Of a DNA stretch of 64,000 nucleotides, positions 15,001-21,000 are shown one piece after another (the stretch's first letter is position 1; every line of letters starts with the position of its first letter). A program made the position numbers. The stretch spans positions 32,001 through 96,000 of the forward strand of contig CAWJQC010000008.1 of assembly GCA_963844965.1 (NCBI GenBank), read 5' to 3'. This DNA comes from an uncultured bacterium. GTDB taxonomy: Bacteria > Patescibacteriota > Minisyncoccia > UBA6257 > 2-01-FULL-56-20.

Positions 15001-18000
15001 AATCCTCGCTCGCTATTGATTGAGGATACGCCGACAATAGCGAAAGGTCAACAAATGCAAGCGTATTATTGCAAACGAAAGATTCTCTTCATGTCCCAGA
15101 GGAGCGGTTCGCGGGTGGCAATCAATATTCCAAAATAGACGGCTGCCGAGATAATAACGTTCGCGAAAAGATTCGCGGAAGCGAGGCGGAGCGCAAGCGT
15201 CGCAAACCCCATGGCCAATACGGCCGCTACGACACGCGGCAGAAACCTAATCGTTTCGAAGGGCAGCATTTTTCTTGCCTCGCGCCACATATAACCGTGG
15301 ATAATCACGAGAGCGATGATTGTCGAAACCACGCTCCCGGCGATGCCGAACGGCGGAATAAGCAGAAGGTCGAAAACGGCGTTGCTAACCGCCCCCCCTA
15401 TCATGGCAAAAATATATACCCTTTGCCGTCTGTTCGCGAGCACAAAATTGTTAACAATGCTTGCCGGATACGTGATGACAAGTGTTAAAAGCAGCAACTC
15501 GAACGATAATACCGCGGGGGCGTACTCCGCGCCGTAAAGGAGATGGATAATGGATGGGGCAATAATGATCGCTCCGACGGCAATCGGCAAAACAATCATA
15601 AGTGAAAAGGCGACGAGTTTTTCAATTAAATTTTTCAAGCGATCGCTCGCGCCCTCTTTCGCGAGGCGCCCCATCATCGTAAATGAACCGGTCACCATGA
15701 TGGCGGGGACGACGGCAAGAATGGACACCGGCCGCTGGGCGGCGGCGTAATAGCCGAGCTCCGCGGCGGAGCGGAACCAGCCGACCATAAGCGTGTCGGT
15801 ATTGACCATGAGGGTCCACATGGCGCTTGCCAGCCCAAAAGGAATCGCTTCGGCAAAAATGCCCTTCACCAATCCGAAATTAAACTGAAAGGAGCGGAGC
15901 ATGGCGCTTATGTTCTTTTTAACGATAAGGAAAACCGAAAACGTTCCGAGCGCACTCCCCGCGAGGTACATGAGCGTGAGCATATACGAAGTGCGCGAGT
16001 AATGAAGGCCGGCAATGCACAATATCAGAATTAGCACGCTCGTGGTTATATTGCCGAAGGCTTCTTTGTCCATTCTGTTCTCCGCGCGGGCGGTGCTATT
16101 TAAAAGCGCCCGCAGGTCGTCGGAGGCGATTAGCAGGGCCACAAACGGAATCAATAATCTGGCTTGAGGAAATTTCGTGATAAATGGCCCTATGATAATT
16201 GTGAGCAGTATAATCGTTGCCAGAAGCCCAACGCGAAGGGACATCAACGTGGAGAAGTACGCCTTGTGCCCCTCGTCTCTCCGCACCATGTTGAGGGTTA
16301 TAAGATAATTCAAGCCCAGATCGGAGATAGCGGTGAAGATTGCGGCAACGCTTATCGCGTATGAAAACAGACCGTACTCCGAAGCGCCCAAAAATCGGGC
16401 GACGTAAATCACGACGGCGGCTTTTACGAGGCTGCCTCCAACGTTTGAAACCGTAAGCCAAAAACTATTCTTTGCGAGCGTTTGGCGGAGCGATTGTTCT
16501 CCGAAAAAAAATTGCTTGAGCTTGCTCATGTGTGTTATTATCATAGCCGAGGACGGTCATATTGTCATGGCAGGAAACGTCTGCTGCTCACAAATTCAAT
16601 GCAAACAAAGCGAATATCCAATTCCAAAGCGCCGCTCGTGAGCATCGGACTGCACGTGAGGAACGGCTCCGATCGCATCCATGAATCGCTCAATTTTCTG
16701 CTCGGCCAAACATATAAAAATTTCGAGCTGATTATCTCCGATAACGCTTCTACCGACAATACGCAAGAAATTTGCGAAAGATACGCCCGCAGAGATTCGC
16801 GCATACGCTACGTAAGGCAAAAGGTGAATATTGGCGGCTACGGAAATTTTGATTTTGTAAGAAAGGCGGCGCGCGGAGAATATTTCATGCTCGCGACCGA
16901 CGACGACACCTGGGACAGGAAATTCATTGAAAAATGTCTGGAAAAGTTCGGAGAAATCCCCGATGCTGTGGCGGTCTGCGTGAACGTCGCCGCCTTTAAA
17001 AACGAAATAGGTGGCGAAGGAATGATCTACCGCAGCCCCTTATCCTATTTTTCTTTTTCGCCGTCGTTATATCAACGCCTCAAGGAATACGTACTCACGA
17101 GAACAAACGTGGACTTTATTTCGGTTATGTTTTACGGACTATGGAAAACAAAAGTCATAAATTCCGTAAGTCTGACTGACGACTTCAACTTCGCGTTCAA
17201 GTTGCTCTTCGCGGGCCGGATCGCCCATATAAATGAATTCCTGTTCTTCAAACGGTACGGCAACAGGGTGGCGCGCGAAGAACCTCTGAGTATGAAGATT
17301 ATCAAATCCATACTGCACGTTTGTACGGACAGATTGCATGTTGTCTTCTCTTCTTTCTTTTCGGTCCAATCCTCGTGCATAATCCGTTCTCGCGACCTCA
17401 CGTCGGGTGAAAAAATACGGCTCGTTTTATACGAACTTTATTCCTATCTTCGCGCTATCGGGGACGGACACAGATAGCGAGCACGCGCTTTATGCGCGCC
17501 GCGCATGCTGACCGTTATTTATAATTCTTCGCGTACACGTTCAGGATTTCTCCGACACGGTGCCGCCAAGTATGGTGTTTGAGCACGTAATTCCTTGCCT
17601 CCGCGGCGCGTTTCTCGCGTTCCGCATCGCGCGGCAACCATTTTGATATCAATCCGTTCATTTCCTTCAGATCGCCGAAAATCGGGAAAGAATTGGGAGG
17701 GAAAAGCACATCAAGGTCCCGGCGATAATCAACAATCTGAAAAGTTCCCGCCAGCGCCACTTCAAAAGTGCGCGAAGAAATGGAAGTCGTATGCCCCGTA
17801 GAATGGAAATTAATCACGATTTTGCTTTGATTATAAATTTTGTTTACCTCGGGAATGCCCGGCTGGCCGCCCCCCCCCAGGAGCCTTGAAAGGTCGGGGA
17901 AGTAACGCGTCCAATAGTTCCAGCCGTTGCCGAAGACGCCGACGCGCAAGCTCTTGGCTATGGAACTCACAAGATTCGCCCGGATTGAACCGTCCGGACT

Positions 18001-21000
18001 CTGCTCCGGAGCCGAGGCGACCATAACCACATCGTACACCTTCTTCTCTCCGGGAATCGGGAAGAAATCGTCGGGATTGCCGGCAAGCGGCAAGTGATGA
18101 ACCCTCTTTGGAAAAAATACTTCAATGTACTTTGCCCATTCGCGGTCTATGCAAAATACTTCGTCGACGTACCTGAAACTCAAAAGCCCGTCCCTCATTC
18201 CGGGGCCGACAGGCGGTGAAACTTCATAATAAAAAATCGGACGGCCAACTTCTTTTTTCGCCCGCGCGACATATTCCGCCAAAACAGTCGGGGCATCTTC
18301 CATGACGATAAGATCGGGCTTGAAATTCTTGAGCGATTCAAGCCAGCGGTGACCCGTTATCCCGAAAAAATAATTTTCGGCATCGTACGGGTGCCGCACC
18401 AGGCGCAAAGCGATGTTCCGAGCTATTCTCCAATTGCGGGGAAGATGCTTCTCAAAAAAGAAGACCTCGTGCCCGAGTGCCTCAAAGGCTTTCTTGAGAT
18501 TTTGCGTCGTGCCCGCGTGCCAATTTGTGCCCGTTAAGTGAATGCGCATAATGCTAACTCTGCCTCAAATTATATTTTTGGGCAAATCATATCTTCCTGC
18601 GCCAGAACAGCCTACTCATCACGAAGAGCGTCCAAAGGATGAGCTTAGTCCGCTGAATCGCGGAAAGTTCCTTTATTTTGATTATGTCTCCCATTCTTCT
18701 GTAGAAGAACGGCGCGACAAGCCTTCGCAACCTGCTGTAAACCAAAGTGTCAAACATCCGCCGCGGAAAGGACTTCCTTCTTGGCGCGTCAAGCGCCGAG
18801 TCGCTCAGGCGCTTGAAAAACAAAACTTCATCGATAAACTCAAATGTTCCCTTGGAAAGCCCGCGAAAAACAAAATTCATATCCTGGAAATCCCACCAGA
18901 ATATCGGGTACTCCACGAAAAGGTCATCCACGACTGCCCGCCGGCGCCAAACCGCGCAATACACGAACATCACCTTTTCATCCGCTTCGTAAAGCAAAGT
19001 ATATTGCTTCAGCCTGCGATAGAGATCTTTCTCCGAGGGGTAAAAAAGTTCCGGACGATGCGCCACCTTCCTGCCTTTGCCGTCAAACTCCACGAAATTC
19101 GTGCCGGCGGCGATCGCCTCCGGATGAGCTTCCAGGCGCGCGATGCATTTCTCCAAAAACGTCGGCGCCAGGAGGTCGTCGTCGCACAGTTCCACAAAAT
19201 ATTCGCCGCGCGCCCTCGCCCGCACGAAACTCCGGTTCAAAATACCGCCGATGTTTCTCTTCTGCCGGATGTAGTTTATGCGCGGGTCGCGCTTCGCATA
19301 TTCCCGGCATACTTCTTCCGTATCGTCCGCGGAGGCATTGTCTGAAACCATGACCTCAAAATTTTTGTATGTTTGCGCAAGAATGGAATCGAGCGCGGCG
19401 CGAAGATATGTTCCAGCCCTGTTGTAGGTCGGTACGCCGATGGTGACCAATCCTTTTATTCCCTTCTCCTCGTCCATGAGAAACTTATCTAACACGCTTC
19501 AAAAACCCTCCCGGTGCGACTGTGATAAGAAGTTTATTTTCCATCCGTTTGTCTATCATAAAATTCCTGTTCTTCTTCAAAAACGCCCGGACGGCGGTCA
19601 GCGGATTGTTTCCCTTGCCCCAAGGCCTTGGCCGCGAACCAATGGCTTCTTTCGGCATATATTCCGTTATCGTGTCCCAGACGACGAGGTAGCTTCCCTT
19701 CGTCACGAACGGCGAATAGAGTTCGCATTCGCGGAGCACGTGCTTGTGCGAATGATTTGAATCCAGGAACACCATTATCCTCTTTTTTCCTTTCGCGATT
19801 TTTTTTATTTTCTTCAGGACTTCAGGCGCGACGGAAGAACCTTCTATCATGGTGATGCGTTTCATCATCCGGTGCGCCTCAATCGCGCGGCGGTTATGCT
19901 TGCGGATATCAATATCCACTCCCACGACTTTTCCCTTACCGCCGATGAGCTCGAGCATCGAAGCCGACAAGATGAGGAGCCGCCGTGGGCGATGCCGGTT
20001 TCGATGACGAGGTCCGGCTTCACGGACCAGATAAGCTCTTGTATCGCAACGATATCCTGCGGATATTGGATGATGGGACGGCCAAGCCAGCTGAAATCAT
20101 ATTGATAGCGGGCCCTTGCGGACTCAATCATGAATCGCCGCGCCAAATTTTTCAGCTTTTTATTTTTAGAAAGCCTTTCGATATTTTCTTCCACTTCCCG
20201 TTTGAACTGCTCCGTCGGGTCCATGTCATTAAGATAACTCTAAATGCCGCGCGCGTCCATGCAAAACCGAAGTTTTTATTGTTCACTCGCAAGAATACCC
20301 TATACCTTCTTGCAACGTGATGAGAAGGTGTAGGGATGAATTGCGATGTGTGAATAATAAACCCCTCCCCATTTGTGGCAGGGGTTTGGTGATAACACCC
20401 AGCGAGAGCCGTAAGGCGACTTCGTCTTTGTATGTCGTGTGCGCATAGTTTTTGCGGCAAATGGAGAGGGGTGAATAACCGCAAGACCGCAGAGCGGCTT
20501 GGATACCGCACCGCTCTGCGGTGCGGTTATTTACTTTCCAATGGAATCCGCTATCTGCCGCGGCGTGAGCCCGTACCGCTCTTCAAGGCACTTCTGATCG
20601 CCTATGCGGGGGTCAAATTCTTCCTTAGGACCTATAAAGCGCAATTTCTTATTCTGAATCTCGTGATCCGCAACAAACTGCGCGATCGAATTGTAAAGCC
20701 CGGAACTAAAATTGTCCTCGATGACCACGATCCTGTCATAGCCGGCAATGACCTTCGCCAGACCGCTGTCAACGGGTTTTATCTTGTCCACGGCGTAGAG
20801 AGAACATTTGCCGGAAATTTTCGCCGCCTCAAACGCATTGGCGACCATTTTGCCGTGGGAGACAAGCAGAATTTCGGCTTTGGGATTTTCTACAACGAAA
20901 CGATTTGCCGACGAAACCGCCTTGCCCCCGGAAAAACTTGCCTTGGAAAGGCGGATGTAGGTCGGATGCGCGGAGGCCATAACCTCGTCGAAAATCACCG

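What the first reader, a model, noticed from the sequence alone, without database searches (positions are those of the whole stretch)
17515..18549. Second long homopolymer (G9) inside a CgeB-like glycosyltransferase, currently in-frame
Nine C at 17870-17878 encode the GGGG of LLGGGGQPG. This is a second tract of 9 or more within 3.3 kb of the first, again in a glycan-modifying gene. Two such tracts in one locus fit a set of contingency loci generating surface-glycan heterogeneity.
Basis: partly seen in the sequence, partly recalled or inferred. Interest (0 to 1): 0.5.

Follow-up and report, generated by a model that had tools for sequence, protein, structure and literature searches.

The report
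Poly-G run in glycosyltransferase gene
A run of nine G's sits in frame inside a sugar-transferase gene of an uncultured groundwater bacterium (Patescibacteria); it is real, rare for this DNA and absent from relatives, so it could be a slippage-driven on/off switch for a surface sugar, but nothing here shows that it switches, and the surrounding sequence carries many frameshifts that look like assembly errors.

Summary
C9 lies at 17870-17878 (+), which is G9 on the coding strand of a 344-aa GT-B glycosyltransferase (17515-18549, -), and it is in frame. A C10 lies 3.25 kb away, inside a TylF-type O-methyltransferase.

For a contingency (phase-variation) tract:
- G/C runs of 9 or more are very rare under composition-aware nulls (0.02-0.14 expected, 2 seen).
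- GGG is a minor Gly codon.
- The run encodes a variable surface loop.
- Orthologues lack it. The 71%-identical ones use GGC GGC or GGA GGA.
- A change of ±1 truncates the enzyme at 234-239 aa.
- Related Patescibacteria loci carry their own C8/C9 tracts in neighbouring glycan genes.

Against, or missing:
- No reads and no same-species contigs were available, so length variation could not be tested.
- Related tracts have the same length in 4-5 assemblies.
- The window holds about 10 frameshifts in conserved genes, including RNase J and iPGM, mostly away from repeats. They are probably assembly indels. The "OFF" G10 methyltransferase is therefore not evidence of switching, and both tract lengths are uncertain.

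Verdict: a credible but unproven homopolymer contingency candidate. It would be a known mechanism in a phylum where I found no report of it. "CgeB-like" holds only at the level of a shared Pfam domain.

The parts
17870..17878 (-). G9 homopolymer (C9 on + strand) inside the glycosyltransferase ORF, codons 224-227, currently in frame
   Evidence: G8 gives a 234-aa product and G10 a 239-aa product, while G6 and G12 stay in frame
17515..18549 (-). Glycosyltransferase, 344 aa, GT-B fold, Pfam PF13524 (Glyco_trans_1_2). Last gene of a minus-strand run: CmcI-MTase, GT2, then this GT
   Evidence: AlphaFold model has pLDDT 93.9, with the Gly run in loop 225-231. Best PDB matches are the GT4 enzymes BshA/MshA/PimA, TM about 0.7. 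36 orthologues, all in CPR/Patescibacteria metagenomes
14611..14620 (-). G10 homopolymer (C10 on + strand) at the frame break of the TylF-type O-methyltransferase
   Evidence: Deleting one G restores a 260-aa protein that aligns end to end at about 70% identity with intact orthologues
14194..14977 (-). TylF/MycF/NovP-type sugar O-methyltransferase, read as two ORFs (14585-14977 and 14194-14694) because of the G10
15392..15398 (-). G7 run in the Wzx flippase gene (ATA GGG GGG GCG = IGGA; orthologues have VAGA). Lineage-specific but short
15066..16544 (-). Wzx-type polysaccharide flippase lying between the two tract-bearing genes (the orthologue alignment suggests the start is at about 16529)
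18587..19495 (-). GT2 glycosyltransferase directly upstream of the GT. Its orthologues in two relatives carry C9 or C8 tracts; this copy has none
16482..17477 (+). Second GT2 glycosyltransferase, convergent with the GT
1384..42125 (.). Extent of the surface-glycan locus that holds the tracts: NDP-sugar enzymes, more than six glycosyltransferases, more than six methyltransferases, a carbamoyltransferase, Wzx, and a Wzy_C polymerase/ligase

Best explanation
The G9 is a genuine, lineage-specific homopolymer in the loop-coding part of a GT-B glycosyltransferase. The gene lies in a roughly 40-kb Wzx/Wzy-type surface-glycan locus of an uncultured Patescibacteria (Paceibacteria-like) groundwater bacterium. 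Most likely it acts as a slipped-strand hot spot. Gain or loss of one G during replication shifts the frame after residue 226-228 and gives a 234-239-aa product that lacks most of the donor-binding C-terminal Rossmann half. A further slip restores the gene. Together with the G9/G10 tract in the TylF-type O-methyltransferase 3.25 kb away, this would let a population carry cells with and without one sugar and one O-methyl group on the surface glycan. Shown: the tract, its rarity, its absence from orthologues, its rare-codon make-up, its loop position, and the truncating effect of a ±1 change. Inferred: that it actually slips at a useful rate and is maintained for that purpose.
For: The tract is present and in frame. 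Runs of 9 or more are 15-90 times more frequent than composition-aware nulls predict, and both lie within 3.3 kb in glycan-tailoring genes. GGG makes up only 16% of Gly codons, and 29 of 96 Gly-Gly pairs are GGCGGC against 3 that are GGGGGG. The site is a variable loop with locally lower pLDDT (83), lying between conserved elements. None of 36 orthologues has the run; the nearest use GGC GGC or GGA GGA. G8 and G10 remove the invariant residues N236, H249, R260, D274, R276, D278 and W328. Related Patescibacteria loci have independent tracts in neighbouring glycan genes: C9 and C8 at two different codon positions of the GT2 orthologue, and C9 in a CmcI methyltransferase. In 255 kb of unique related DNA, 2 runs of 9 or more are seen against 0.13-0.19 expected. 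A 74%-identical orthologue carries an in-frame TAA in the same loop, so null alleles of this enzyme occur in nature.
Against: No tract-length variation was observed anywhere. No same-species sequence could be found. The C9 and C8 tracts of relatives have identical length in 4 and 5 assemblies, including ones that differ by 5-7 SNPs. The frameshifted G10 neighbour is not informative, because about nine other frameshifts in this window lie in conserved genes at non-repeat sites. Enrichment under dinucleotide shuffling is only marginal, and for runs of 8 or more in relatives it is not significant (3 seen against 0.8-2.3 expected). Only 64 kb of the genome is visible, so tracts might be common elsewhere.
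Confidence: 0.45

Rival explanations
1. The run is incidental. A loop that tolerates glycines drifted to GGG GGG GGC GGC in this lineage. The tract is mutable in principle, but it is not maintained or used as a switch and has no regulatory role.
For: The loop is the least conserved segment of the protein, and close relatives already have GG there. Comparable tracts in relatives are stable across assemblies. The dinucleotide-shuffle null gives only P of about 0.02. In relatives, runs of 8 or more are not clearly enriched. All tracts seen in intact genes are in frame.
Against: Two runs of 9 or more lie 3.3 kb apart, against 0.02-0.14 expected. The run is built from the minor GGG codon. Both runs are in glycan-tailoring enzymes, and the lineage otherwise avoids G/C runs of 6 or more (7 runs of 6 or more in 64 kb).
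Confidence: 0.4
2. It is an assembly or sequencing artefact: the tract, or at least its called length, is wrong. The picture of one tract ON and one OFF is then produced by consensus indel errors.
For: There are about 10 frameshifts in 64 kb in otherwise well-conserved genes: RNase J x2, iPGM, GT4 x2 (compensating), FkbM MTase x2, an epimerase, the CmcI MTase and the TylF MTase. The out-of-frame pieces still read as conserved protein. A repeated IS of about 945 bp is resolved inside one contig, which hints at long reads. Homopolymers are the most error-prone sites for such data.
Against: Consensus errors change a tract by a base or so; they do not create a 9-10 nt run. The GT aligns to orthologues without gaps across the site and keeps its frame. 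The MTase needs exactly a one-base removal to be restored. Independent short-read assemblies of relatives contain C8/C9 tracts reproducibly.
Confidence: 0.1
3. The tracts are recoding sites. Transcriptional slippage or ribosomal frameshifting on the G run yields full-length protein from an out-of-frame gene, or a second product.
For: The G10 methyltransferase is otherwise intact. Long homopolymers can support RNA-polymerase slippage (general knowledge).
Against: The GT tract is in frame and needs no recoding. The alternative frames end after 7-13 codons and give no conserved product. No orthologue shares a tract at either site. The many other frameshifts make an error the simpler explanation for the G10.
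Confidence: 0.03

Closest known systems
Poly-G/C contingency genes of Campylobacter jejuni capsule, LOS and flagellar-glycosylation loci (PMC8355987, PMC3068675)
   Same: Intragenic G/C homopolymers of 8-10 nt sit in glycosyltransferase and methyltransferase genes clustered in a surface-glycan locus. A ±1 change truncates the enzyme. Tracts are not conserved between lineages.
   Different: In Campylobacter the switching is demonstrated and tract lengths differ between isolates and within cultures. Here no length variation has been seen. The organism is a free-living or episymbiotic groundwater Patescibacterium, not an animal-associated pathogen.
Neisseria pgtA pilin galactosyltransferase poly-G tract (PMC2193922)
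   Same: A poly-G run that encodes glycines inside a glycosyltransferase ORF. Alleles with and without the run exist among strains, and orthologues lacking the run encode the same residues with mixed codons.
   Different: For pgtA the phase variation and its phenotype are experimentally shown. The enzyme family and the glycan target (pilin O-glycan) differ.
GT4-type GT-B glycosyltransferases (BshA, MshA, PimA) and Pfam PF13524 Glyco_trans_1_2, the domain also found in Bacillus CgeB
   Same: The predicted two-Rossmann GT-B fold has TM about 0.7 to BshA/MshA/PimA. The PF13524 match covers residues 191-336.
   Different: Sequence identity to solved structures is only 10-15%. No NCBIfam model reaches its cut-off. 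There is no CgeB-specific N-terminal domain or spore context. Donor and acceptor are unknown.

Membership tests
Homopolymeric-tract (SSR) contingency / phase-variable gene | Uninterrupted G/C homopolymer of about 8 nt or more within the ORF or promoter | tested here: met
   G9 at 17870-17878 and G10 at 14611-14620
Homopolymeric-tract (SSR) contingency / phase-variable gene | A ±1 change in tract length abolishes the product (ON/OFF) | tested here: met
   In silico, G8 gives 234 aa, G10 gives 239 aa and G9 gives 344 aa. The lost part holds 7 invariant residues
Homopolymeric-tract (SSR) contingency / phase-variable gene | Tract is over-represented relative to composition and codon usage | tested here: met
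   0.023 (order-4 Markov), 0.03-0.09 (run-length tail) or 0.14 (codon resampling) expected against 2 seen. Only marginal by dinucleotide shuffle
Homopolymeric-tract (SSR) contingency / phase-variable gene | Tract is not conserved in orthologues, which encode the same residues with mixed codons | tested here: met
   No run in 36 orthologues. The nearest use GGC GGC or GGA GGA, and the longest run elsewhere is G6
Homopolymeric-tract (SSR) contingency / phase-variable gene | Tract length varies within a population or between strains | not testable with these tools
   No reads are available, and no same-species contig or protein is in any collection. As a proxy, C9/C8 tracts of relatives are invariant over 4-5 assemblies, which does not support variation
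Homopolymeric-tract (SSR) contingency / phase-variable gene | Genome-wide, tracts concentrate in surface-structure genes | tested here: inconclusive
   In the 64 kb, 2 of 2 runs of 9 or more and 3 of 4 runs of 7 or more lie in the glycan locus. That locus is about 64% of the window, and the rest of the genome is unseen
Pfam PF13524 Glyco_trans_1_2 / GT-B glycosyltransferase | Profile match above the gathering score | tested here: met
   84.5 bits against a cut-off of 25, residues 191-336
Pfam PF13524 Glyco_trans_1_2 / GT-B glycosyltransferase | Two-Rossmann GT-B fold | tested here: met
   Model pLDDT 93.9. Foldseek probability 1.00 and TM 0.72-0.75 to BshA and MshA
CgeB (Bacillus spore-maturation protein) orthologue | Full-length similarity to CgeB, including its N-terminal domain, or a curated family hit | tested here: not met
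   Only the shared C-terminal Pfam domain matches, plus a weak Glyco_transf_4 hit. No NCBIfam model is above its cut-off. All relatives are Patescibacteria
TylF/MycF/NovP O-methyltransferase (the neighbouring tract gene) | Full-length homology to family members | tested here: met
   The repaired 260-aa protein is 60-70% identical over more than 94% of its length to proteins that carry PF05711. The fragments alone are below the Pfam cut-off (19.4 against 23 bits)
Wzx/Wzy-dependent surface-polysaccharide locus | Wzx flippase, Wzy-type polymerase/ligase, glycosyltransferases and NDP-sugar pathway genes are clustered together | tested here: met
   Polysacc_synt, Wzy_C, GT2/GT4/GT9/GT10, and epimerases, dehydratases and nucleotidyltransferases. 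An initiating phosphoglycosyltransferase was not identified in the window

The most novel reading that the evidence does not exclude
Patescibacteria (CPR) bacteria use recurrently evolving poly-G/C tracts in glycosyltransferase and methyltransferase genes of their large surface-glycan loci as contingency switches. This would give these ultra-small episymbionts stochastic surface-glycan diversity, for example against phages or for host attachment. It would be the first case of SSR phase variation in this phylum.
Probability: 0.3. Interest if true: 0.55.

Novelty: new member of a known kind. Interest (0 to 1): 0.35.

Why it matters
Slippage-driven phase variation of surface glycans is a textbook strategy of host-adapted pathogens such as Campylobacter, Neisseria, Helicobacter and Haemophilus. 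Full-text searches found no paper that links phase variation through homopolymeric tracts to CPR/Patescibacteria. If the tracts here and in related groundwater lineages really switch, bet-hedging on surface structure would extend to the Candidate Phyla Radiation. It would also point to the surface glycan as the interface under fluctuating selection, from phage or from the host cell. The test is cheap, because existing metagenomic reads would suffice. A practical point also follows. This contig carries many probable indel errors, so frame states at homopolymers in such MAGs should not be read as biology without read support.

Tried and rejected
1. Same-species sequences that might show other tract lengths. 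I ran exact-protein look-ups for the GT, P0001, the upstream GT2 and the carbamoyltransferase. I scanned genome and metagenome collections with the family alignment. I ran a homologue search with the repaired methyltransferase. Nothing closer than 71% identity turned up.

2. Tract-length comparison in relatives across assemblies. C9 has the same length in L020/L022/L038/L039/L040, and C8 has the same length in L018 and L041-L044. There are no indels at all.

3. A search for truncated (OFF) variants of the C9-bearing GT2 of a relative. None were found. The one short hit, P0176 (236 aa), ends normally at the start of the downstream GT, so it is not a tract-truncated form.

4. Using the out-of-frame G10 methyltransferase as evidence for an OFF phase. 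I rejected this after finding about nine other frameshifts at non-repeat sites, including in RNase J and iPGM.

5. Enrichment of runs of 8 or more in relatives under an order-3 Markov null. This was not significant (3 seen against 2.3 expected). Only the tail of runs of 9 or more is enriched.

6. CgeB orthology. I rejected it.

7. Comparison of the two IS copies as an internal check on indel error. They are identical apart from 1 substitution, but at about 0.95 kb they are too short to be informative.

8. Recoding by transcriptional or ribosomal slippage. There is no conserved alternative-frame product.
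Full report
**Observation**

The window has nine consecutive C at 17870-17878. On the minus strand they read CTC CTG GGG GGG GGC GGC CAG CCG. The G9 therefore covers the last base of Leu224, Gly225, Gly226 and two bases of Gly227 of the ORF 17515-18549 (-), which is open for 344 aa and contains LLGGGGQPG.

A census of all homopolymers finds only four G/C runs of 7 or more in 64 kb:
- C10 at 14611-14620
- C7 at 15392-15398
- C9 at 17870-17878
- C7 at 59894-59900

There are 21 C runs of 5 and 13 G runs of 5, three G runs of 6, and no C runs of 6 or 8. The long runs are outliers on a steeply falling distribution. The C10 is 3.25 kb from the C9.

**Is it more than chance?**

| Null model | Expected | Observed | Probability |
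|---|---|---|---|
| Dinucleotide-preserving shuffles (count of 9-mers) | 0.46 | 3 | 2 of 100 shuffles reach 3 |
| Order-4 Markov chain, trained with tracts masked (runs of 9 or more) | 0.023 | 2 | P(>=2)=0.003 |
| Empirical extension probability, 0.16-0.22 per extra base (runs of 9 or more) | 0.03-0.09 | 2 | P(>=2)=0.0004-0.004 |
| Codon resampling from the window's own usage, every protein kept (runs of 9 or more) | 0.14 | 2 | P(>=2)=0.009 |

The shuffles ignore the strong avoidance of G/C runs in this DNA. The codon-resampling null is conservative because it keeps the Gly runs. GGG is only 16% of Gly codons. Of 96 Gly-Gly pairs, 29 are GGCGGC and 3 are GGGGGG.

**What the gene is**

The protein matches Pfam PF13524 Glyco_trans_1_2 (84.5 bits, cut-off 25) and weakly Glyco_transf_4. 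No NCBIfam model reaches its cut-off.

An AlphaFold model built on 34 homologues is confident (pLDDT 93.9). It shows two Rossmann-like halves. Foldseek places it with the GT4 GT-B enzymes BshA, MshA and PimA (TM about 0.7, 10-15% identity). 'CgeB-like' therefore means only the shared C-terminal domain family.

The Gly run lies in a loop (residues 225-231) between a short bridge and helix 232-240. That ten-residue block has the second-lowest confidence in the model (pLDDT 83).

All homologues come from groundwater and other metagenomes. Where named, they are Patescibacteria, Paceibacteria or 'Saccharibacteria' MAGs.

**Context**

The gene sits in a glycan locus of about 40 kb (roughly 1.4-42.1 kb). 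The locus holds:
- NDP-sugar kinases, nucleotidyltransferases, epimerases and dehydratases
- GT2, GT4, GT9 and GT10 transferases
- FkbM-, CmcI-, TylF- and C-methyltransferases
- a carbamoyltransferase
- a Wzx flippase and a Wzy_C protein

Housekeeping genes follow from 42.3 kb. The order GT2 - GT - GT2 (opposite strand) - Wzx - TylF-MTase is syntenic with relatives such as L001.

**The other tract**

The G10 at 14611-14620 lies where two overlapping ORFs meet (14585-14977 and 14194-14694). Removing one G gives a 260-aa TylF/MycF/NovP-type O-methyltransferase. It aligns end to end at about 70% identity with intact orthologues. Those orthologues read FGS-L, FQN-L or FGK-L where this gene reads FGGGL.

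In the alignment of 34 proteins, the segment around the run is the least conserved part of the C-terminal half. At the DNA level none of 36 orthologous loci has a run. The two 71% relatives have GGC GGC GCC CGC and GGA GGA GTA GGC. One 60% relative has GGG GGG (G6). Most have Ser- or Ala-rich sequences. The tract is lineage-specific and built against codon preference.

**Consequence of slippage**

G8 gives a 234-aa product and G10 a 239-aa product. G6 and G12 stay in frame. The truncations remove the invariant residues N236, H249, R260, D274, R276, D278 and W328. That is most of the donor-binding half.

**Relatives**

Related loci carry their own long tracts in other glycan genes:
- C9 in the GT2 upstream of the GT in one lineage (TCC CCC CCC CGG)
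- C8 five codons away in the same GT2 in another lineage (AAC CCC CCC CGA)
- C9 encoding HGGGM of a CmcI methyltransferase in a third lineage

The window's GT2 has no run at either site. In 255 kb of non-redundant related DNA, runs of 9 or more number 2 against 0.13-0.19 expected. Runs of 8 or more number 3 against 0.8-1.0 expected. An order-3 Markov null gives 2.3 for runs of 8 or more, which is not significant.

Where the same lineage was assembled several times, tract lengths are identical. This covers 4 assemblies for the C9 and 5 for the C8, including pairs that differ by 5-7 substitutions.

A 74% orthologue of the GT carries an in-frame TAA in the same loop and then continues with conserved sequence. 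Null alleles of this enzyme therefore exist in nature.

**A major caveat found on the way**

The window contains many broken genes:
- The CmcI methyltransferase is frameshifted right after HGG (about 19977).
- An FkbM methyltransferase is read in three frames (34172-35081).
- A GT4 has two compensating shifts about 160 nt apart. The catalytic segment is readable only in another frame (32922-34118).
- An epimerase is split (37095-38271).
- iPGM is split by a 1-nt change next to, not in, an A8 run.
- RNase J is split twice, once inside its HxHxDH motif.

Counting the G10, this makes about 10 indels in 64 kb. They are spread evenly over glycan and housekeeping genes and lie mostly at non-repeat or very short-repeat sites, and all pieces still look like conserved protein. 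The simplest reading is residual indel error of the assembly. A resolved IS repeat of about 945 bp within the contig hints at long reads. Real, very recent pseudogenisation is possible but less likely.

Either way, the out-of-frame state of the G10 gene cannot be counted as a phase-OFF allele. The exact lengths of both tracts are uncertain by about one base. The existence of the tracts is not in doubt, for three reasons. Consensus errors do not create 9-10-nt runs. The flanks align to orthologues without gaps. Short-read assemblies of relatives reproduce similar tracts.

**Could variation be seen directly?**

No. Exact-protein look-ups for four window proteins found nothing. Collection scans found no relative closer than 71%. 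Searches with the repaired methyltransferase and with a relative's tract-bearing GT2 found no near-identical truncated or restored variants.

**Conclusion**

The feature is real, statistically unusual, lineage-specific and placed exactly where classical contingency tracts sit. Those classical cases are the poly-G genes of Campylobacter capsule, LOS and flagellar glycosylation (PMC8355987, PMC3068675) and Neisseria pgtA (PMC2193922). The most likely mechanism is slipped-strand mispairing that toggles the glycosyltransferase, and probably the O-methyltransferase, between full-length and truncated forms.

I put about 0.45 on this being a functioning contingency switch. I put about 0.4 on an incidental Gly-run that is mutable but not used. 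About 0.1 goes to artefact explanations of the tract or its length, and a few percent to recoding.

Full-text searches found no report of homopolymer phase variation in CPR/Patescibacteria. If confirmed, it would be a new member of a well-known kind in a new phylum. Read-level analysis of the source metagenome would settle it.

Noticed in passing
window 19977, 33055, 33215, 34480, 34735, ~37750, ~44300, ~50000, ~50450 (approximate shift sites): About nine frameshifts, in addition to the G10, lie in well-conserved genes: the CmcI MTase, GT4 (two compensating shifts), FkbM MTase (two), an epimerase, iPGM and RNase J (two). Most are not at long homopolymers, and all fragments still read as conserved protein. 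They are probably assembly indel errors, or alternatively very recent gene decay.
   Followed up: partly
window 27159-28111 and 53287-54239: Two copies of an IS with a DDE (rve) transposase. They are identical over about 945 bp except for one substitution. One copy lies inside the glycan locus and the other among the housekeeping genes.
   Followed up: partly
window 54714-58427 (-): The isoleucyl-tRNA synthetase is 1237 aa and carries a histidine-phosphatase (His_Phos_1) domain inserted at residues 554-719, between the halves of the catalytic domain.
   Followed up: no
L025 2545-2553; window ~19977: In a related lineage, a C9/G9 tract encodes the HGGGM SAM-binding motif of the CmcI-type methyltransferase. 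The window's CmcI copy is frameshifted immediately after the same HGG, but it has no run there.
   Followed up: partly
L041 7002-7018 (same as L042 3293-3309); L038 3033-3041: The GT2 upstream of the GT carries C8-G-A8-C-T7 in one lineage and C9 five codons downstream in another. These are independent homopolymers in the same short gene segment, and their length is invariant across 4-5 assemblies.
   Followed up: yes
L046 830-832: A 74%-identical orthologue of the glycosyltransferase has an in-frame TAA (where the others have Ser) in the same loop that holds the G9 here. Conserved sequence continues in frame after it. This is an independent null allele, or an error on a 917-bp contig.
   Followed up: partly
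window 59894-59900 (-): A G7 run lies 3 nt upstream of the ATG of a 136-aa ORF with no Pfam match (59480-59890). It looks like an extended Shine-Dalgarno sequence, and length changes there could alter translation initiation.
   Followed up: no
window 15392-15398 (-): A G7 run in the Wzx flippase (ATA GGG GGG GCG, IGGA) where orthologues have VAGA. This is a third lineage-specific G run in the same 3.3-kb stretch.
   Followed up: partly
window 11379-14153 (-): A NodU/CmcH-type carbamoyltransferase (616 aa) is followed by a PD-(D/E)XK protein and a small SxtJ-like protein. This suggests O-carbamoylation of the glycan.
   Followed up: no
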